From IMG/VR virus record IMGVR_UViG_3300036828_000667, positions 1 through 64,000 of that record: a stretch of DNA of 64,000 nucleotides; one strand, 5' to 3'. The notes beneath the pieces were generated by a model, which saw only the letters and a program-made list of their open reading frames with translations, searched no databases and had not been told where the DNA came from. Made by a program: the position numbers and the translations under genes. This document shows, piece after piece, positions 7,501 through 64,000 of this stretch; position 1 is the stretch's first letter, and each line of letters opens with the position of its first letter. The stretch comes from a virus.

Positions 7501-9284
7501 ATCTCTAGTGTGGAGAAGAGCACTACCCTAACAGGACTAGTTCCCTTTGTGACACTCTCACCAACTTTGAACAAAAACGGCTTACTGGGACCTCGAATAA
7601 CTACTAACAAAACCGAGATGGCGTAGGGTAAAATCCTACTAATATATCTAATAAAAGAGATTACTTGGGACGACGTCAGCACAGTAGTTTTCGATACAAT
7701 AGCAGTTCTAGTGACTTTTTCTGGTGAAGAGAAAAGTCTAGTAAGAGATGGACTAGATAGCCTTGTAACAGATTCATGGACTGAGAATAAAATTGTTCTT
7801 CTTAAGCTTCTAGTAACTGCCAGCACAACAGAAATCGGGTTAACAACGACAGGTATCTTTTTAGTAGATAACTTGATACCAGTTACAAGCTGGGCAGACT
7901 TAATAGATAGCTTACCTGTAACGTTCTTCGTTACGAAGTTAGCCCCAGTGAGTGTAGAGTACGTAGATAGCGTCGATCTCAGTGCAATATTTGATTTAAA
8001 AGTCTGAACAGTAGCTATGCTGGTTTCAAATACTGAACTCAGCTTAGCTAAACCTTTAGCGATTCTAATAGTCTCATTAGAGTATATTGAAATCAGCTTA
8101 GCAGTCATTCCTCCAATGAACTTTTGAGAAACAACAGACACAGTCATACTAGGTATTGCTGTCGTTACTGTACCGGTACTAAAATCACTAGAAAAGTCTT
8201 TGTTGAAATCGCCTCCAGCGGTATCAACCATAAAGTCGGCAGAGTTAAAATCAATAGAGCTAAAATCAACAACACTACCGCCAGCACTACCGGCATTAGT
8301 AAACGATATTAGCTTAGAGAGCACTACCTTAATAGCTCTGATAGTCAATACACTAGTCTCGGTTATCGAAACTTGTTTCTGTCTAGCTAACATCCTAGCA
8401 GTTTGAAGTATTTCAGATGTAGCTATTGAAAGCTGTCTTTGTGTAACTGAGGCTATTATACGTTGAACAGTCAAGACTTCACGAGACTGTATCAGCAACT
8501 GCTTAATAGTAGATGTTCCAGTAAGTTTAGCGTAAATAATAGATACAGCCATACTAGGTATTACTGTCGTCGCTGTACCAGTACTAAAATCACTAGAAAA
8601 GTCTTTGTTGAAATCGCCTCCAGTACTAGACGTACCACTAGCACCAGCATTAGTAAATGATATTAGCTTAGGTAACTTCCTAATAGCTTGAAATATTTCA
8701 GACGTAGCTATTGAAAGCTGTCTCTGTGTAACCAAGGCTCTTATACGTTGGACAGTTAAGACTTCGCCAGAATACAACAACAGTTGTCTTACATTAGGTA
8801 TTCCGGTAAATTTAGCAGGAATAATAGATATAGTCATACTAGGTATAGTTGCTGTACCAGTACTAAAATCACTAGAAAAGTCTTTGTTGAAATCACCTCC
8901 AGTACTAGAAGCACCACCACCAGAATTGAGGAAGGATATCAGCTTTGATGTAGATGCTCCTACTACCTTAGCAGCTTGGACAGTAAACCTAACAGGTTGA
9001 GCAATCGAGATCAGCTTCGGTACATTAGCAGCTGTTCGCTTGACAGTTTGAACAGTTAATACACTTGAATGAGCAACCGAGATTAGCTTTGGTGTAACTA
9101 ACGCTTTTATTCGTTGGACAGTTAATACTGCACTAGAGTGTAACGAGACCAGCTTAGGAGTAGATGCCCCAGCACTGATCCTAGTGGCAGTGATAGATAC
9201 AATGCTTGACTCAGTAACCGCCAGTTTACCAGTTACATTTTTTGTTACTTGACTAGCCCCAGTGACTACCTGTCCAATGGGCAT
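4551..9284 (-). CDS. giant low-complexity S/T/I/V/K/R-rich repeat protein, probably virion-associated
   Basis: 1577 aa open frame, about 19-21 aa pseudo-period, three GGDFNKDFSSDFSTG motifs. Confidence 0.7.
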   Translation of the reverse strand: MPIGQVVTGASQVTKNVTGKLAVTESSIVSITATRISAGASTPKLVSLHSSAVLTVQRIKALVTPKLISVAHSSVLTVQTVKRTAANVPKLISIAQPVRFTVQAAKVVGASTSKLISFLNSGGGASSTGGDFNKDFSSDFSTGTATIPSMTISIIPAKFTGIPNVRQLLLYSGEVLTVQRIRALVTQRQLSIATSEIFQAIRKLPKLISFTNAGASGTSSTGGDFNKDFSSDFSTGTATTVIPSMAVSIIYAKLTGTSTIKQLLIQSREVLTVQRIIASVTQRQLSIATSEILQTARMLARQKQVSITETSVLTIRAIKVVLSKLISFTNAGSAGGSVVDFSSIDFNSADFMVDTAGGDFNKDFSSDFSTGTVTTAIPSMTVSVVSQKFIGGMTAKLISIYSNETIRIAKGLAKLSSVFETSIATVQTFKSNIALRSTLSTYSTLTGANFVTKNVTGKLSIKSAQLVTGIKLSTKKIPVVVNPISVVLAVTRSLRRTILFSVHESVTRLSSPSLTRLFSSPEKVTRTAIVSKTTVLTSSQVISFIRYISRILPYAISVLLVVIRGPSKPFLFKVGESVTKGTSPVRVVLFSTLEIITRRISLLKFVNVSSSSLVSLIKYVSRSISVTIGQVIKFFKSLRSKIIFSISSIVTELAPIYKYQASFVTNNLLTAKGYMTLRLMRTVQTGSLLVVSAVKGLHTLPVAIIQVFSSQVVSYASYVSKNVVIINSENFRFTKSLIVVRNFLSQETISSIKFSGRLSAFSMVQSLSISKNPYKIFGIVLSELMGITRAIPARVGVVLSQHLGITRVRQVVSTFFVSATATTSKVTNKIILLYTRVTKPKQYDLVFSYISKEAVTVRTALFKFIAPIVATMSSALSLVLFFQRGRVFPVLSSQIISTTRVSSFFRTLALTVSEAISIIRVPSSSINFATRESIIYIRVLNRLTLITSSISMLLTRARLSYFPQFLFGSSEVLSVLRIYIKTPSLITGQVFLIAKALPGSILVITNQIISTGKIIARIILDFSSEIVATTTSIQFTSFQNLVSMGQTLSLVAKQPAAQFRLVIQHSQLWKATERAVKIIQITSVSTFTSTKMIFKSSFSFSLSVVSSIIRSYTKIFGLVTNQPVKLIKLFYRIFNIQSVEQLRLVKSSIKVFSYITNEVTTSTNLIVKYITLISSYRLDFTKATNKLFSFITRPVMSFSRVGSKYFAFIQSSRTTVFRPAVYKVFNLSTVENVLIVVRTSHLVLFASSQLYSFTVVISKTLKVTIHELLQFVRTSKGKLFIDIDQTLDLIKSANWRTLVRTPERLTLSRVASKIIGFQEQIITISRSFTSRVLRIVTIVPITLTRVTNRSLGIRFIERISLAKALQKTIRISIHEIVKSLIGKPVIFTQHMLSSLRRTMLKPVRIVTDVHLAYVISTRKAKSIIVRSAQLFMLGKAVLKHIRITVSEKLSRNVTYYFVRVFYSPQKITRSFGYHKSVAIHWFETLFVSKTSLKSIRVRITSRLTVPRTTLKRIGFVVRNKVQQGIIYHRAMSWVTPVIATASTRYGKTFIIVQDSVISVFRKVRSLIQRAVILLTGA
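8176..8900. repeat. three copies of a 41-bp repeat encoding GGDFNKDFSSDFST
   Basis: gtactaaaatcactagaaaagtctttgttgaaatc(g/a)cctcc at 8176, 8581, 8860. Confidence 0.9.
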
Positions 9285-10096
9285 TAAAGTATTATCACTT
9301 TATTGATTGTCTTTGGGACACTCACTGACTCAGTAGACTGCATAGGCAATACCCTCCCCAGCTGAGCAGCCTTACTAAGGCTGACAAACTCAGGTGACGT
9401 AGAGCCTATAGTCTTATTAAGTCCCAAACGCTTTGATATAATCTCTGGCGAAGTAAAGTCATACTCACGTTGATAGGCAACAGCCGCAGGTTTGAACGAA
9501 ACCAGCATTACCGTAAAAGTCCGAGAAGTAATCGTTGGATTATAGGTAACTGAATTGGTAGAAGAAACAACAATAGATCCGCCTCTAACCGATACACTAT
9601 TATTTGCTGCTACTATACTATCAAATGGTATAGCCCAACCACTAGGTTGATTAAAAGTATCAGATGTCCCTGTAGTACCCGTATATACACAACCAAATAA
9701 AGCTTCATTAGATGAAGTTAGGGGTCCAGATGAAACCGATGGAGTAGTAGAAGTCCCGCCAACCAAAGCAGGGTTTGCATCAGTTAGAAAAGGACCACCT
9801 GTAACGGACCCGATAGCTAATGCAAGAGCACTAGCAGAAGAAGCTCTTGTCCAAGTTATCTTCTGACCAGCGTTTATTGCTATACAATTGTGACATACCC
9901 AAAGGTAAGCCCCACTACCCGAATTAAGTAACTGATAAGTATTTCCTACATCATCACCAAGAGAAACAGACGCTTGCCCTGAAATACCAGCAGCACAAAT
10001 CGAAGCCCCTGCTGGAATATTATTTGGTAACGTCCTAGATATAGTCAGTCCTGATAAAGCACTTGCACCTCCTTGGTCTGCAATTACTATCGCCAT
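9284..10096 (-). CDS. virion structural protein (beta-rich)
   Basis: S/T/G-rich, D..GNTY motif; C-terminus carries the S.E repeat style of its neighbour. Confidence 0.6.
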   Translation of the reverse strand: MAIVIADQGGASALSGLTISRTLPNNIPAGASICAAGISGQASVSLGDDVGNTYQLLNSGSGAYLWVCHNCIAINAGQKITWTRASSASALALAIGSVTGGPFLTDANPALVGGTSTTPSVSSGPLTSSNEALFGCVYTGTTGTSDTFNQPSGWAIPFDSIVAANNSVSVRGGSIVVSSTNSVTYNPTITSRTFTVMLVSFKPAAVAYQREYDFTSPEIISKRLGLNKTIGSTSPEFVSLSKAAQLGRVLPMQSTESVSVPKTINKVIIL

Positions 10097-10761
10097 ACAT
10101 ACAATCCCCAGAAGGTCGCTTCACTTAAAGCCCTAGGCACTACCTCTGGGTCCAAACTACCTATCTCCAATTCTTCGAAACCAACGTCCTTGATCAGTTT
10201 TTGAATGTCAATACCATCATTAGCCCATCCCCTCTCTAGAGTAGGAACAACTCTAGTTACATTGTTGACGACAAACATCTTGGCACCTGGGAAGAGGGAA
10301 TCCCTTATAGTCCTGAGATCTTCTTCAGGATCGAGACAATGCTGTAGAACCCATACAACGACAGCAAGATCAAACTTCATATGTTTCCTAATCATATCAA
10401 ATGATTTCGGAGAACAAGCGAAGAAGCTATCGTCATCTACATGATGGGCTGCAAAGCCTCTCATACTAGAACTTATGTCAACCCCTATGGCTGTGCAGTT
10501 ACTCTTGCTTATCAGTTCCTTGGAGATCCTTCCTATCCCACAACCATAGTCCAAAACAAACCTTTCTCCGGCGTCGAGTTTGACCTTAGAAAGGATCAGG
10601 TCGGTCAGGTATGGAGTTTCCCTAATCCACCTTTCTTTAGAGCTTTGATCAAACTCTGTAGTAAGGATAACATTTCTAGCCTGTTCCATACTAGGAACGT
10701 TGAAAACACCAGGATAATAAGTAGCCTCATCGTAAGCAGGCATAGTCATGTTGGTTTCCAT
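10087..10761 (-). CDS. class I SAM-dependent methyltransferase
   Basis: VLDYGCGIGR motif I, GVDISSSM, FDLAV...VLQH. Confidence 0.88.
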   Translation of the reverse strand: METNMTMPAYDEATYYPGVFNVPSMEQARNVILTTEFDQSSKERWIRETPYLTDLILSKVKLDAGERFVLDYGCGIGRISKELISKSNCTAIGVDISSSMRGFAAHHVDDDSFFACSPKSFDMIRKHMKFDLAVVVWVLQHCLDPEEDLRTIRDSLFPGAKMFVVNNVTRVVPTLERGWANDGIDIQKLIKDVGFEELEIGSLDPEVVPRALSEATFWGLYVWR

Positions 10762-16618: not shown

Positions 16619-16675
16619 GGTTACTCCAGAACAAGACGCTTGACATTGGGTCTAGGCATGGTACCGTGGCGATGT

Positions 16676-16760
16676 GCACACCGAACCGGAGCATACCTAC
16701 CCACGCCTTCCCGCGCCATTCCAAACCATACCCAACCTACCCTCACCACACCGCACCATA
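16676..16760 (+). ncRNA. pentamer element E1, 17 units
   Basis: (C/G)C-NNN x17; TTGACA 16640; ends CCACA CCGCA CCATA. Confidence 0.85.
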
Positions 16761-20546: not shown

Positions 20547-20611
20547 ACGGACCATTCCGATCCGAAGCCAGCCCCACCGTGCCTATCCCCTCCCCAGCGA
20601 ACCGAACCACA
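20547..20611 (+). ncRNA. pentamer element E2, 12-13 units
   Basis: TTGACA 20508; CC-NNN register; ends CCGAA CCACA. Confidence 0.82.
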
Positions 20612-40176: not shown

Positions 40177-40258
40177 GACCGTCTATCCCATCCGAACCAG
40201 TCCAATCCTATCCTATGCACACCGCACAGAATGACCTAAGAGAAATCTTAGGTCATTC
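40177..40258 (+). ncRNA. pentamer element E5 (8-10 units) with GAAA-loop hairpin
   Basis: TTGACT 40148; GCACA CCGCA; 13-bp stem 40229-40258. Confidence 0.85.
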
Positions 40259-40682: not shown

Positions 40683-40729
40683 ATCCCCCTCCACTTGACT
40701 CACAAAGATTATTTGGCTACTATCCAAAC

Positions 40730-40811
40730 GCGAGCCAAACCGGTCCACTCCACGCCCCTCCTTCGCTTACCGATCCACACAGAATGGCCTGAGAGAAATC
40801 TTGGGCCATTC
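40730..40811 (+). ncRNA. pentamer element E6 (10 units) with GAAA-loop hairpin
   Basis: TTGACT 40695-N17-TACTAT; stem 40782-40811 with two G-U pairs. Confidence 0.85.
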
Positions 40812-44223: not shown

Positions 44224-44309
44224 GTAGTAGGTTTTCCTGTTGTGCTAGTTTAACTGAGATAAGGGCGGTAGGTCCCCTCGATCCCTCCCCAGCCCAGCCC
44301 CTCCCGGCA

Positions 44310-45497: not shown

Positions 45498-45557
45498 TAT
45501 GGTGTGGTATGCTGCGGTGTGGTTCGAGGGGCCGCGGGCTGGTTTGGTTAGGGTTGC
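45498..45557 (-). ncRNA. pentamer element E8, 12 units
   Basis: NNN-GG/GC register on plus; tandem with E9. Confidence 0.8.
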
Positions 45558-45578
45558 AGAACACAGTATGAACTAAAG

Positions 45579-45633
45579 TATGGTGCGGTATGCTGAGGAT
45601 TGCGATGGTCTGCGCTGGGTCGCTGTGCTAGGC
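45579..45633 (-). ncRNA. pentamer element E9, 11 units
   Basis: TTGACT(-) 45663-45668 N17 TATGGC; ends GCATA CCGCA CCATA. Confidence 0.82.
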
Positions 45634-45674
45634 AGACAAGCCATACCAAACGGTGGATTCGGAGTCAAGGGAGA

Positions 45675-46367: not shown

Positions 46368-46877
46368 ATGCAAGCTACCTTCCACCAGTTCATCGATAAA
46401 ATCAGAGTCGAAACACTCCGAACGTTCAACGAAAATGGAAGTATACACCCAACATGGTTTTTACAAGAAGAGGATGGCCAGATCCTACTTGTGGCCACAC
46501 CATATACAGATGATCTGACAAAAGACATGGTAGACTTCGCCATTAGAGAAGCCATCAGAATTAAGCATATCCAACGCTACGCGTATATTTCAGAAGTTTG
46601 GATGGCATTTCAAAAAGATTTGACTTCACTAGAAGACTACAAGGGACTAAGACCAAGCCAAAGACCTGATCGGAAAGAAGCATTGATGTTTATAGCAGAA
46701 GACATTTCAGGAGACTATATAATGTCGTACTCTGATATCTACAGAGACTCCAAAACTGACCTTGCTATGATTGCTGAGATCAAGATAGACGGAAAAGAGG
46801 TAGACCCAGATACTCTTAAAGGACGTTTTGTAAAAATGTTCAAAGGAAGGAAGAAGCCCTCAGGCTCGCCACACTAG
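46368..46877 (+). CDS. conserved phage protein
   Basis: SEVWM..RPSQRPDRKEAL motif. Confidence 0.7.
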   Translation: MQATFHQFIDKIRVETLRTFNENGSIHPTWFLQEEDGQILLVATPYTDDLTKDMVDFAIREAIRIKHIQRYAYISEVWMAFQKDLTSLEDYKGLRPSQRPDRKEALMFIAEDISGDYIMSYSDIYRDSKTDLAMIAEIKIDGKEVDPDTLKGRFVKMFKGRKKPSGSPH

Positions 46878-47188
46878 CTAGATCAGCGCTAGAAGGTTAC
46901 TGCCGAGAGCTATAGTGAAAAGGCTTCACCTAATCTTCGTCCTCACAGGTTTCAGGAGTACATAGGTAGCACTCTGTCCGTCGGTGGTGAATAAACCAGC
47001 ACCTTCCGCAGTACCACTTACCGTCGTCCCCCTTCATGGGTTGAGGCTTCTCGCAGTCCCGCGGACAGTGGTAGTGATCAGCTTTCATACTCACCGCTCC
47101 GCAGAGTTCGTCTTTGACCATAATTTAGGACAGCTTTCTCCGAAGAGGACCATCCTTCCTTACCCCATATCTCCATTAAGTACAAAAG

Positions 47189-47268
47189 TATGGTGCGGTG
47201 TGCAGCGGTTAGGCATGGGATGGGCGGGCTGGCGACGGCGAGGCACGGGTTGCATTGGTGTGGGTTGG
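47189..47268 (-). ncRNA. pentamer element E10, 16 units
   Basis: follows hairpin 47281-47317; ends GCACA CCGCA CCATA CTTTT. Confidence 0.85.
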
Positions 47269-47325
47269 TAGGATAGAGGACAAAGGACCAGAAGATTAGA
47301 TATCCTCTGATCCTTTGAACAGATG

Positions 47326-47390
47326 TGCGGTTTGGTATGCTGTGGGCCGGCACGGCTGGGGGTGGCGCGGGAAGGCTTGGCATGGCTTGC
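47326..47390 (-). ncRNA. pentamer element E11, 13 units
   Basis: TTGACT(-) 47421-47426 N17 TAGTCT. Confidence 0.88.
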
Positions 47391-47433
47391 ACCAAAAAGA
47401 CTACTACCAAACTTACCGCTAGTCAACCACTAT

Positions 47434-47847
47434 TTACCTGATACGCTGCACTAAGCAACCTTCCGATTTTGCCTGCCACGTCCCACACCACTGGCCAGCT
47501 TCAACAGGTCGCAAGATCCACTTTCGTGAATATTCCCAGATCGGAACGACCTTTTTTTCCATGACCTTCTGGCCGTTCTCGTCTAAGACGAGTTTGTTCT
47601 TTTCACCCCGCTTAGACCGTGAGATTTCCTGTGTCCCGACTTGCGTGGCAAATTTCATTTTGACCGCGGACACAGCTGAACCCAAAGTTTTCATGGGATC
47701 GGGCATCTTCTCGGTCTTAGCTGCGAAGAAGCTCTGTCCGACGCCCAATTTATCAAGAGGATATTTGGCGACCCCATTACGGTTACCACGTTTCGACTTC
47801 GGCATTTCCACCGCGTCGATGATTTCAAACGTCACTTGCTCTTCCAT
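47434..47847 (-). CDS. putative DNA-binding phage protein (contains E10 and E11 matches)
   Basis: KYPLDKLGVGQSFF motif. Confidence 0.75.
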   Translation of the reverse strand: MEEQVTFEIIDAVEMPKSKRGNRNGVAKYPLDKLGVGQSFFAAKTEKMPDPMKTLGSAVSAVKMKFATQVGTQEISRSKRGEKNKLVLDENGQKVMEKKVVPIWEYSRKWILRPVEAGQWCGTWQAKSEGCLVQRIR

Positions 47848-48227
47848 TCTGTTCTCCGTCTTTTGTGAGACGGCTCTTGACCGTCCTCTGTCACCATTTT
47901 ATCTCGTCACGATCCCATTGGGACCGATTACACTCTACAAAAATAGGGTGCTCCATAGCCCTTGTCAATAGCCTAGACACTACAGGCCATTGGCTACAAA
48001 GTGCCTTGGCAGGCGTGATCTAGGCCTACTCATATCTTAAAAGCCACTAGACCAGAACATTTTAATTCCACTGGGGAGAGCCGCATTGGCCTTTTTTCCG
48101 ATGGCCCAGGCCAAGGCTCCCATGCTGCACTGCACAAAACGATTTCGAATCAACCTGCCGTCTTGACCCCCGGACCACACGGTCTACACTACCCCAAGTC
48201 GTTCCCTCTCGCAGATCGGTTGAAAAA

Positions 48228-57183: not shown

Positions 57184-57201
57184 TAATGTTAACCTTCTTC
57201 G

Positions 57202-57299
57202 GCGAACCGGTCCAATCCGAACCGACCCTATCCCTACCGGACCCTTGCACAGCATACCGCACATCTACCCCTCAGGCTGTATTACACAGCCTGAGGGGT
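57202..57299 (+). ncRNA. pentamer element E15 (12 units) with 3' hairpin
   Basis: TTGACA 57167 N17 TAACCT; stem 57267-57299. Confidence 0.87.
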
Positions 57300-62201: not shown

Positions 62202-62531
62202 ATGGTAGAATTTGGAGCGTTCATTCGCAAAGAACGAGAGGCCAGAGATATTAGCTTACGAAAGATGGCCAAGAAGATTGGTGTAAGTGCAACCTATCTA
62301 TCACAAGTGGAACTTGATAGGTTCCCACCACCAACTGAGGATAGGGTAAAGGCTATTGCCAAGATCATTGACTGTAATCCTGACTACCTACTGGCCAAAG
62401 CTGGACGGATCTCGACCGACATTTCCGACATCATTAAACGTCGTCCGATCGAGCTTTCGATGCTTATTCGAGCCGCCAAGTACTTGAGTAACGATGACAT
62501 TGCCCAATTGATTAATGCGGCGTCAGCGTAG
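62202..62531 (+). CDS. XRE-family HTH regulator
   Basis: SLRKMAKKIGVSATYLSQVE. Confidence 0.88.
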   Translation: MVEFGAFIRKEREARDISLRKMAKKIGVSATYLSQVELDRFPPPTEDRVKAIAKIIDCNPDYLLAKAGRISTDISDIIKRRPIELSMLIRAAKYLSNDDIAQLINAASA

Positions 62532-63410: not shown

Positions 63411-63514
63411 TCGAACCGCTGCCTTGCTTGCCAAACCGGGCCAAGCCGGCGCGGACCAAACCTCCGCACACCGCACAATGGGAGTAGTCAAATGGCTTGC
63501 AGACTACTCCCATT
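63411..63514 (+). ncRNA. pentamer element E17 (13 units) with 3' hairpin
   Basis: TTGACC 63369; GCACA CCGCA; stem 63477-63514. Confidence 0.88.
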
Positions 63515-63533: not shown

Positions 63534-64000
63534 ATGCTAATTTCAGTCACGATCTCCGGAATCCGACCTTTAATCCTCGACGCGTTTTCCGAGGAAGCGT
63601 TGCTTAAGGGGAAGGGAGGAAAGAGTACAGCCCAGCCCAAGGAACTGAGTCCCTTGGATCAAGCCAAGCGTAGGTTATACTATAATGGAGATGGTACCGA
63701 CGTTCCTATATTCCCAGCAGACAACCTACTCAGCTGTATCATCGCTGCCGGGCGGTTTATCAAGGTCGGGAAAAGGCAACTAACTACTCGCGACAGTACG
63801 ACAGTAACTTCATTCCTACAGATATCAGAACTATATCTTCCCATTAGGTCGATAGATGGATGGCGAGTCGACTCCAGGAGCATCGTCAACCCGTCTACAA
63901 AAGGTCGTCACATATGCTACCGTCCCATCTTTGACGACTGGGAGTTAGATTTCACGCTCGACATCGATACGAATGAAGCGAGCGACAGCTTGGTTAGACA
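63534..64000 (+). CDS. RAMP/Cas7-like protein, truncated by the window end (not in ORF track)
   Basis: AGGAG RBS; MLISVTISGIRPLIL..., PIFPADNLLSCI, D.R.IV...GRH..YRPIFDDWELDFTL.ID; no stop to 64000. Confidence 0.7.
   Translation, partial: MLISVTISGIRPLILDAFSEEALLKGKGGKSTAQPKELSPLDQAKRRLYYNGDGTDVPIFPADNLLSCIIAAGRFIKVGKRQLTTRDSTTVTSFLQISELYLPIRSIDGWRVDSRSIVNPSTKGRHICYRPIFDDWELDFTLDIDTNEASDSLVR

What the first reader, a model, noticed from the sequence alone, without database searches (positions are those of the whole stretch)
47189..47451. E10, in tandem with E11, matches the same gene's end including its stop codon
Triplets ...gtc cag cgc atc atg taa (VQRIM-stop) versus gene end gtg cag cgt atc agg taa (VQRIR-stop, 47434-47451); upstream units diverge. 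Two guides under one promoter, separated by a 16-bp stem (47281-47317), form a mini-array against one gene family, possibly against different alleles.
Basis: partly seen in the sequence, partly recalled or inferred. Interest (0 to 1): 0.75.

Follow-up and report, generated by a model that had tools for sequence, protein, structure and literature searches.

The report
Two phage VIPR guide RNAs in tandem
The two five-base-repeat elements are guide-RNA genes of a phage VIPR system (a CRISPR-like, RNA-guided DNA silencer first described in 2026); one clearly reads the neighbouring gene, the other only weakly, and the whole system belongs to an unusual clade whose repeats appear to be written on the opposite strand.

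Summary
E10 (47192-47271, -) and E11 (47329-47393, -) are real. They are 2 of about 30 arrays of NNN(C/G)C pentamers in this 113.8-kb phage genome.

They are guide-RNA (vrRNA) genes of a VIPR system (bioRxiv 10.64898/2026.04.26.720920). The genome encodes a Cas7-like Vipr protein at 63534-64175. It is homologous to SUSP1 Vipr (hhalign probability 98.5%). This scan has already noted VIPR in at least 294 other genomes.

E11 matches codons 63-72 of the adjacent DUF7303 gene at all 20 first and second codon positions. Only 2 of 10 third positions match, as the published 1-nt-skip rule predicts.

E10's claimed match is there but weak. It covers 6 of 14 variable units (15/18 nt). It is not significant when only the two paired bases count (p=0.18). 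Counting all three bases gives p of about 0.01. Over the whole guide it reaches 57%, below the published 80% cut-off. No homologue ends in NVSVQRIM.

One promoter-like site precedes E11 and none precedes E10. The 16-bp stem is real.

The new part is the clade. In this phage and 3 IMG/VR relatives the C-rich strand is co-oriented with vipr (30/30 arrays). In canonical loci it is the G-rich strand (266/270). The third unit base is unconstrained. The guanine-contacting G-loop residues are replaced (GD[FYW]RP to GVMRP).

Many solo guides sit beside resident genes that they nearly match.

The parts
47434..47847 (-). DUF7303 gene (137 aa). It is the resident gene that E11 matches, and that E10 matches weakly at its last 5 codons plus stop.
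   Evidence: Pfam PF23978 E 2.3e-24. phrog_7597. 14 metagenome homologues at 49-93% identity.
47632..47661 (-). Site in the gene cognate to E11 (codons KMKFATQVGT).
   Evidence: 20/20 first and second codon positions equal E11 units 2-11, and 2/10 third positions. It is the best diagonal in the genome.
47398..47426 (-). Promoter-like site TTGACT-N17-TAGTCT, ending 4 nt before E11.
   Evidence: The same bipartite motif lies upstream of the C-rich strand in 13/30 elements and upstream of the G-rich strand in 1/30. Background is 0.02.
47329..47393 (-). E11: tract of 13 pentamers NNN(C/G)C. The last two units (ATACC AAACC) belong to the conserved end.
47324..47328 (-). GCACA, the conserved close of solo tracts.
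   Evidence: The same GCACA follows 10 other tracts.
47281..47317 (-). 16-bp stem with a 5-nt loop between E11 and E10. No T-run follows it. It is probably E11's 3' tail or a leaky stop.
47192..47271 (-). E10: tract of 16 pentamers (14 variable units plus ACACC GCACC). It has no promoter of its own.
47207..47236 (-). E10 units 8-13 (GTC CAG CGC ATC ATG TAA after dropping the fixed bases), the block that resembles the gene end.
47434..47451 (-). Gene end GTG CAG CGT ATC AGG TAA, which E10 units 8-13 match at 15/18 nt.
47182..47191 (-). ATACTTTTGT, the second type of conserved 3' extension. It also separates units in the main array.
63534..64000 (+). vipr gene (213 aa; it runs on to 64175, beyond the window), the protein partner of the guides.
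   Evidence: AF2 model pLDDT 83. Foldseek top hits are Csm3/Cas7, E 3.6e-6, probability 1.0. hhalign to SUSP1 Vipr gives 98.5%.
63413..63472 (+). Solo guide upstream of vipr. Its triplets spell 12/12 residues of Vipr residues 21-32.

Best explanation
E10 and E11 are two guide-RNA (vrRNA) genes of a phage-encoded VIPR system.

By homology with the published system, the 213-aa Cas7-like Vipr protein (63534-64175) coats each RNA, one protomer per 5-nt unit. It hides the fixed bases and shows the variable ones, which pair with double-stranded DNA in a gapped register. This blocks transcription of the bound gene, typically in a rival phage.

In this locus a single sigma-70-like promoter, just after the DUF7303 stop codon, starts transcription at E11. 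E11 ends in ATACC AAACC GCACA plus a 16-bp hairpin. Read-through or processing then yields E10, which ends in ACACC GCACC ATACTTT.

E11 is cognate to the most conserved core of the DUF7303 family. E10's target is unknown, and its 6-unit likeness to the gene's C-terminal motif VQRI-x-stop is at most a remnant.

The system belongs to a variant clade. Its unit is NNN(C/G)C, and the C-rich strand is probably the RNA.

Shown here: the tract anatomy, the promoter motif, the fold and homology of Vipr, the E11 match and the polarity statistics.
Inferred: transcription, RNP formation, silencing, and which genomes are hit.
For: Published system:
- VIPR is described. The structure is, and solo guides and rival-vipr targeting.

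Tracts:
- About 30 tracts of 7-20 units have 5-nt periodicity.
- A (CCNNN)10 pattern hits at least 118 IMG/VR contigs, against about 0.1 expected by chance (my estimate from pattern specificity and collection size). 66 of them carry a Vipr-like gene beside the arrays.

Vipr:
- It has a RAMP fold and is homologous to SUSP1 Vipr.

E11:
- 20/20 NN and 2/10 third positions against the neighbouring gene.
- The site lies in the family's most conserved block.

Neighbouring genes in general:
- In 9 elements the best six-frame match in the genome lies within 60-380 nt.
- Codon positions 1, 2 and 3 are identical in 75/83, 82/83 and 21/83 cases.

Strand:
- The promoter motif lies upstream of the C strand in 13/30 elements and of the G strand in 1/30.
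- Arrays fill co-directional intergenic gaps and abut the vipr ribosome-binding site in relatives.
- Arrays near vipr are C-co-oriented in 30/30 cases in 4 genomes of this clade. In canonical loci they are G-co-oriented in 89/91 and 177/179 cases.
- The G-loop covaries with polarity: GD[FYW]RP becomes GVMRP, and the N/H at the end of beta1 becomes D.
- Two homologous GAAA hairpins keep pairing only on the C strand, through U.G wobbles (sequences).
Against: - No RNA data exist. Strand, ends and processing are inferred from motifs.
- The published vrRNAs are G-rich, and on the G strand the unit here still reads GS-NNN. An antisense-transcribed canonical RNA is therefore not excluded.
- E11 matches the phage's own gene at 91-100% of NN positions. 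The papers report no self hits at 80% or above, so either the third base is read in this clade or the guide acts on self.
- No foreign target was found for E10 or E11 in IMG/VR.
- No clear vap accessory gene was identified.
Confidence: 0.85

Rival explanations
1. E10 is a second guide against the same gene family, aimed at the 3' end, including the stop codon, of a DUF7303 allele carried by other phages.
For: - 15/18 nt is the best NNN diagonal in the whole genome, and it lies 170 nt away on the gene that E11 matches (p about 0.01-0.02).
- The matched block VQRI-x-stop is the conserved C-terminal motif of the family.
- Other solo guides sit next to the gene they match.
Against: - The NN-only score is not significant (p 0.18).
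- The whole-guide NN match is 57%, against the published cut-off of 80%.
- Units 1-7 (LNTNNVS) contradict W124, A126, G130 and L132, which are invariant or nearly so in 14 homologues. None of these homologues ends in NVSVQRIM.
- The 10-unit NN pattern has 0 hits in IMG/VR.
Confidence: 0.2
2. Canonical polarity. The functional RNAs are the G-rich strands (GS-NNN units), transcribed antisense to vipr and to the flanking genes. The TTGAC...TA motif and the hairpins would then have other roles.
For: - All experimentally shown vrRNAs are G-rich.
- For about 10 solo units the G strand is co-directional with the flanking genes (my tally from the ORF lists and the array strands).
- The SUSP1 G-strand 5' end (GTAT GGTAA GGTGT) resembles ours (GTAT GGTGC GGTGT).
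Against: - The promoter motif is 13/30 against 1/30.
- Arrays fill operon gaps up to the vipr ribosome-binding site, leaving no room for antisense promoters.
- The polarity flip is 30/30 against 266/270.
- The D and aromatic residues that contact the guanines are lost exactly in this clade.
- The conserved end lies 3' of the tract only on the C strand.
Confidence: 0.25
3. Self-regulation. The solo guides that lie beside their cognate resident genes (E11 on DUF7303, two guides on vipr itself, and others) silence the phage's own genes. This would give timing control or negative feedback.
For: - E11 matches the resident gene at 20/20 NN.
- Five guides reach 83-88% NN on neighbouring genes within 60-380 nt.
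- VIPR binding represses transcription on either strand.
Against: - Most matches are imperfect at exactly the positions where synonymous or conservative changes can break NN pairing. Leu/Arg/Ser codon-box switches occur in 8 of 11 cases (my count from the codon pairs).
- In split codon boxes the third base of the unit keeps the codon's purine/pyrimidine class (44/53). In four-fold boxes it does not (20/38). This looks like copies of diverged coding alleles.
- The published systems avoid self.
Confidence: 0.2
4. The region is protein-coding. The 110-aa and 88-aa minus-strand ORFs across 47078-47426 would encode proline-rich proteins.
For: Both ORFs exist.
Against: - They are by-products of a C-rich, stop-poor repeat.
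- The 5-nt period is incompatible with coding.
- The same tracts occur at about 30 sites in both orientations, with promoters and conserved ends.
Confidence: 0.01

Closest known systems
VIPR systems (Vipr plus vrRNA). Reference: type II of Escherichia phage SUSP1. bioRxiv 10.64898/2026.04.26.720920, .720927 and 10.64898/2026.10.15.759431.
   Same: - A lone small Cas7-like RAMP, homologous to SUSP1 Vipr.
- Guide genes made of 9-20 pentamers with fixed and variable positions, both upstream of vipr and in an array downstream, plus solo guides elsewhere.
- Matches to coding DNA in which the unpaired position falls on the codon's third base.
- Guides that read vipr genes.
- Phage-borne.
   Different: - The unit is NNN(C/G)C with an unconstrained third base. 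Canonical loci have a purine there in 93% of units on the same strand.
- The C-rich strand is co-oriented with vipr and carries the promoters.
- The G-loop is GVMRP instead of GD[FYW]RP.
- The 3' end is A(C/T/A)ACC GCAC(A/C) plus a variable hairpin or ATACTTT, not a conserved pseudoknot tail.
- About 17 solo guides are spread over 50 kb, many beside a resident gene that they match at 79-100% NN. The papers found no self hits at 80% or above.
Non-canonical VIPR repeat units (bioRxiv 10.64898/2026.10.21.760802; also NNNGG, YNNNG and NNNNG in 10.64898/2026.04.26.720920, methods).
   Same: Vipr-like fold next to 5-nt-period arrays whose fixed part is not GGY.
   Different: The texts I could read name GAC, CAC, WGT and TGH cores and NNNGG-type units. 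They do not name a CC-strand RNA, a polarity flip relative to vipr, or the covarying G-loop. The figures and tables were not readable here, so overlap cannot be excluded.
Class 1 CRISPR-Cas (Cas7/Csm3 backbone filaments on crRNA).
   Same: RAMP fold with a Gly-rich loop and thumb. One protomer binds per fixed step of the guide, and pairing is periodically interrupted.
   Different: No repeat-spacer array appears in the region examined. I did not search for cas1/cas2 or other cas genes. The step is 5 nt rather than 6. The guide information is interleaved with fixed bases inside the guide.
Homing-endonuclease 'marker exclusion' cassettes of phages (analogy only).
   Same: A weapon against an allele sits next to a resident copy of that gene. 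The resident copy differs mainly by synonymous changes.
   Different: Here the weapon is RNA-guided and, as far as is known, binds rather than cuts. No evidence was gathered here for exclusion or for conversion of alleles.

Membership tests
VIPR system | A Vipr protein: a minimal RAMP (RRM core, Gly-rich loop, thumb) homologous to described Viprs. | tested here: met
   AF2 model pLDDT 83. Foldseek finds Csm3/Cas7 at E 3.6e-6, probability 1.0. hhalign against SUSP1 Vipr gives probability 98.5%, E 2e-15.
VIPR system | Guide genes made of tandem 5-nt units (about 9-16) with fixed and hypervariable positions. | tested here: met
   E11 has 13 units and E10 has 16. There are about 30 tracts genome-wide.
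VIPR system | Fixed trinucleotide GGY (pyrimidine after GG) on the RNA strand. | tested here: not met
   The third base is unconstrained: purine in 60% of units here and 53% in 3 relatives, against 93% in canonical loci on the same strand. The fourth position is C 80% / G 20%. The texts name variant units such as NNNGG.
VIPR system | The G-rich strand of the arrays is co-oriented with vipr and is the transcribed strand. | tested here: not met
   Arrays near vipr are C-co-oriented in 30/30 cases in 4 genomes of this clade, against G-co-oriented in 266/270 cases in canonical loci. Promoter motifs lie on the C strand. Transcription itself was not measured.
VIPR system | A conserved 3' extension (tail) after the tract. 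| tested here: inconclusive
   The conserved A(C/T/A)ACC GCAC(A/C) is followed by a hairpin of variable sequence or by ATACTTT. No conserved pseudoknot was seen, and no covariation model was built.
VIPR system | The variable dinucleotides match a target with one skipped base per unit, and the skip falls on the codon's third position. | tested here: met
   E11 gives 20/20 NN and 2/10 third bases. The pooled codon-position identities for positions 1, 2 and 3 are 75/83, 82/83 and 21/83. For E10 alone the result is inconclusive.
VIPR system | No self-targeting at 80% NN or above. | tested here: not met
   Self matches are 85% (E11), 83% and 85% (the two guides on vipr) and 88% (40184), compared.
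VIPR system | Guanine-contacting residues (H17, D177, W178 and R138 of the solved Vipr). | tested here: not met
   Only the thumb Arg is kept. D becomes V, the aromatic residue becomes M, and H/N becomes D in this clade. All G-co-oriented relatives keep D plus the aromatic residue.
VIPR system | A vap accessory gene beside vipr. | tested here: inconclusive
   An HTH_3 gene (62202-62531) lies upstream, and small Zn-ribbon-like ORFs and an HNH-AP2 gene lie downstream. None was tied to a published vap family.
VIPR system | The RNP binds dsDNA and silences transcription. | not testable with these tools
   Needs biochemistry or reporter assays.
CRISPR array | Near-identical direct repeats of 25-40 nt separated by unique spacers. 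| tested here: not met
   The repeat finder sees no such family in 46800-48000. Rfam has no match in the window.

The most novel reading that the evidence does not exclude
This Vipr clade (G-loop GVMRP) uses mirror-type guides. The RNA is the C-rich strand, with two fixed bases (C/G, C) hidden by the protein and three variable bases per unit. The third base is read at least partly.

Under this reading each solo guide is a codon-by-codon copy of a rival allele. It is parked next to the resident copy of that gene, and the resident copy is protected only by synonymous differences. This would be an RNA-guided form of allele or marker exclusion between related phages.

It would also explain three observations:
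- E11 matches its own neighbour at 20/20 NN without apparent harm.
- The third base keeps the codon's purine/pyrimidine class in split codon boxes (44/53) but not in four-fold boxes (20/38).
- Leu, Arg and Ser codons switch codon box in 8 of 11 cases.
Probability: 0.3. Interest if true: 0.75.

Novelty: new variant of a known kind. Interest (0 to 1): 0.5.

Why it matters
VIPR is a months-old class, and its rules come from one G-type subfamily. This clade has three differences from it:
- the repeats are flipped relative to vipr;
- the third base is free;
- the guanine-reading residues are replaced.

If the C strand is the RNA, Vipr filaments can be built on a different fixed dinucleotide. The code may then be 3+2 rather than 2+3. 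This bears on how the code evolved and on engineering it.

The phage also offers a natural test of how self and non-self are told apart. Its guides lie beside resident genes that satisfy the published targeting rule.

For the finding as given, the practical result is more modest. E10 and E11 are ordinary members of this system, and E10's link to the gene end is weak.

Tried and rejected
Negative searches:
- Rfam gathering search of the window found no family.
- ARAGORN found no tRNA or tmRNA.
- blastn of the locus against GenBank phages found no match.
- Exact NN-pattern scans of IMG/VR gave 0 hits for E10 (10 units) and for E11 (10 units).
- A pattern combining the conserved 3' end with four units gave 0 hits in IMG/VR.

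Searches for allele DNA:
- Distant DUF7303 loci in IMG/VR (41% identity or less) carry no arrays.
- The metagenome scan gave only 58-61% identical alleles, with no arrays downstream. They are too diverged to test third-base matching.
- Both genome-contig scans (DUF7303 and Vipr) found no relative.
- The genome search does not draw relatives for a virus record.
The contigs of the 80-93% identical DUF7303 homologues could therefore not be read.

Other checks:
- Decoded peptides of arrays in 118 other IMG/VR loci do not match their neighbours above shuffles. The beside-its-own-gene pattern is therefore not general.
- Guides of L137, L138 and L215 hit neither their own loci nor this genome.

Ideas dropped:
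- A diversity-generating retroelement (template and variable repeat at a gene's end). The likeness appears only after removing every fourth and fifth base, and the same tract type recurs about 30 times. I did not search for a reverse transcriptase.
- Five-base decoding by ribosomes, tRNA sponges, and a TRAP-like ring-binding RNA. All were superseded once the VIPR papers and the Vipr homology were found.
- A planted or synthetic feature. This was rejected because natural homologues and arrays are abundant in public metagenomes.

Full report
**What is there**

The minus strand between the DUF7303 gene (47434-47847) and a 63-aa gene (46930-47121) carries two tracts with a strict 5-nt period. E11 (47329-47393) has 13 units and E10 (47192-47271) has 16 units. 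Each unit is three variable bases followed by CC or GC.

A window-wide scan finds 15 such tracts. The whole 113,838-bp genome has about 30, including a block of 10 directly behind gene 63534-64175.

Tracts close with A(C/T/A)ACC GCAC(A/C). A hairpin or ATACTTT follows.

**Checking the observation**

E10 does read ...GTC CAG CGC ATC ATG TAA, against the gene end GTG CAG CGT ATC AGG TAA. That is 15/18 nt, and the upstream units diverge.

- Scored on all three bases, this is the best of about 227,000 diagonals in the genome. The shuffle p within +-1 kb is 0.010.
- Scored only on the two bases that the published code pairs, the result is not significant. It is expected 0.32 times in +-1 kb, with p 0.18.
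- Over the 14 variable units, 16/28 NN positions match.
- None of 14 homologues ends like NVSVQRIM. All end G-[CVA]-L-[VI]-[QRA]-R-[IVT]-[KRL]. E10's upstream units disagree with the conserved W124, A126, G130 and L132.

The stem 47281-47317 is real and is the only robust helix in the region.

E11 behaves differently. Units 2-11 spell KMKFATQVGT. They match the gene at 20/20 first and second codon positions and at 2/10 third positions. No shuffle comes close.

**What it is**

A literature search found the class. VIPR systems consist of a minimal RAMP protein, Vipr, and vrRNAs. A vrRNA has 9-16 pentamers in which a fixed GGY alternates with a variable NN. The NN bases pair with dsDNA while one target base per unit is skipped. 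The skipped base usually falls on the codon's third position.

Cryo-EM shows one protomer per repeat. G1 is read by H17 and D177. G2 is read by R138 and W178. The pyrimidine sits in a pocket that excludes purines.

A later preprint describes solo vrRNAs and guides aimed at rivals' vipr genes.

This genome has the protein. The 213-aa product of 63534-64175 folds as a Csm3/Cas7-type RAMP. It aligns to SUSP1 Vipr with 98.5% probability.

The pentamer pattern alone retrieves at least 118 IMG/VR contigs. Of these, 66 have a Vipr-like gene next to the arrays. The feature is therefore natural and widespread. This scan already holds VIPR notes for at least 294 genomes.

**The skip rule explains the odd statistics**

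In nine elements the best six-frame match in the whole genome lies 60-380 nt away. Identity at codon positions 1, 2 and 3 is 75/83, 82/83 and 21/83. Eight of the matches are sense-like and two are antisense-like. This fits dsDNA recognition.

**How this locus probably works**

- TTGACT-N17-TAGTCT (47426-47398) ends 4 nt before E11.
- E10 has no promoter motif and starts 9 nt after the stem.
- The stem has no T-run after it.

E11 addresses the most conserved block of the DUF7303 family. From the protein alignment it would match several alleles at 90% NN or more. The residues involved each have a single possible NN.

E10's target remains unknown.

**What differs from the published systems**

1. 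*Polarity.*
   - In 53 IMG/VR loci with Vipr relatives at 49% identity or less, arrays near vipr have the G-rich strand co-oriented with vipr in 89/91 cases.
   - In the pattern-derived loci the figure is 177/179.
   - SUSP1 is the same, with a consensus promoter on the G strand.
   - In this genome and its three closest IMG/VR relatives (L137, L138, L215), all 30 arrays near vipr have the C-rich strand co-oriented.
   - These arrays fill co-directional intergenic gaps right up to the vipr ribosome-binding site.
2. *Promoters.* A TTG[AC]C[ATC]-N16-18-TA motif ends 3-11 nt before the C-strand tract in 13/30 elements, with one further hit at 40 nt. It lies upstream of the G strand in 1/30, and the background is 0.02. 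Two homologous GAAA hairpins after tracts 40184 and 40727 differ by one compensatory change and by two changes that give U.G pairs only on the C strand (sequences).
3. *Unit.* The third base is unconstrained here and in the three relatives. Canonical loci have a purine there in 93% of units on the same strand. The fourth base is C or G at about 4:1.
4. *Protein.* All G-co-oriented relatives keep G-(L/V)-G-D-[FYW]-R-P and an N or H at the end of beta1. The four C-co-oriented genomes have G-x-G-V-M-R-P and a D. V169 and M170 are nearly invariant in the 34-sequence alignment of the closest metagenome homologues, drawn from the 95 found.

These are the residues that read the two guanines in the solved structure. 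I therefore think the C-rich strand is the RNA in this clade (about 0.7). This is inferred, not shown.

Non-canonical units are reported in print. I could not see the figures to tell whether this type is among them.

**Self-matching**

The papers found no self hits at 80% NN or above. Here the self matches are:

- E11: 85% over the whole tract, and 100% over its 10 cognate units.
- The two guides on vipr: 83% and 85%.
- Tract 40184: 88%.

In split codon boxes the third base of the unit keeps the resident codon's purine/pyrimidine class (44/53). In four-fold boxes it does not (20/38). Within a class it is more often the other base (28 against 14). Leu, Arg and Ser codons switch codon box in 8 of 11 cases.

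The simplest reading is that the guides are codon-by-codon copies of diverged coding alleles. Whether the third base is read, which would spare the resident gene, or skipped, which would make E11 a self-regulator, cannot be decided here.

**Limits**

- Collection scans accept only exact patterns.
- There are no expression data.

**Verdict**

This is a genuine VIPR guide pair in a variant clade. E11's assignment to the DUF7303 gene is solid, and E10's assignment to the gene end is weak.

Noticed in passing
L135:2950-3150 (genome 64949-65150, just beyond the window): A 66-aa ORF inside the main guide array is a copy of the C-terminal third of Vipr (thumb to G-loop, IGLGSMRPERHGPYGQF). The first array guide matches it at 29/40 NN and the full vipr at 34/40.
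   Followed up: partly
window 45501-45636 (-): A second two-guide cassette has one promoter motif (45668-45640). It is separated by GCACC ATACTTTAGTTCATACTGTGT instead of a hairpin. Neither guide has a match in the genome.
   Followed up: partly
window 40229-40258 and 40782-40811 (+): Homologous 13-bp GAAA-tetraloop hairpins follow two solo guides. They differ by one compensatory change and by two U.G-forming changes that pair only on the C-rich strand.
   Followed up: partly
window 16673-16757, 20549-20608, 40184-40223, 40727-40776, 57199-57258, 63413-63472: Solo guides whose best match in the whole genome is a gene 60-380 nt away. The mismatches are mostly at synonymous or conservative positions (I/V, D/E, S/N, and Leu/Arg/Ser codon-box switches).
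   Followed up: partly
L135:4254-4808 (genome 66253-66807, -): An HNH-AP2 homing-endonuclease-like gene lies about 2 kb from the VIPR locus. Whether it has any link to the guides is unknown.
   Followed up: no
window 62202-62531 (+): An XRE-type HTH gene lies about 1 kb upstream of vipr. It is a possible accessory (vap-like) DNA-binding partner or simply a phage repressor.
   Followed up: no
L215:4242-5401 in vipr orientation (9242-10401 in stored locus coordinates; IMGVR_UViG_3300036791_000741): A relative with the GVMRP G-loop carries 12 consecutive C-strand tracts (up to 32 units) directly behind vipr, most opening with a Q-like CAA/CAG unit. No targets were found in its locus or in this genome.
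   Followed up: partly
window 44271-44305 (+): A short run of 7 units with no conserved end and no promoter motif. It is probably a chance hit of my tract finder, not a guide.
   Followed up: no
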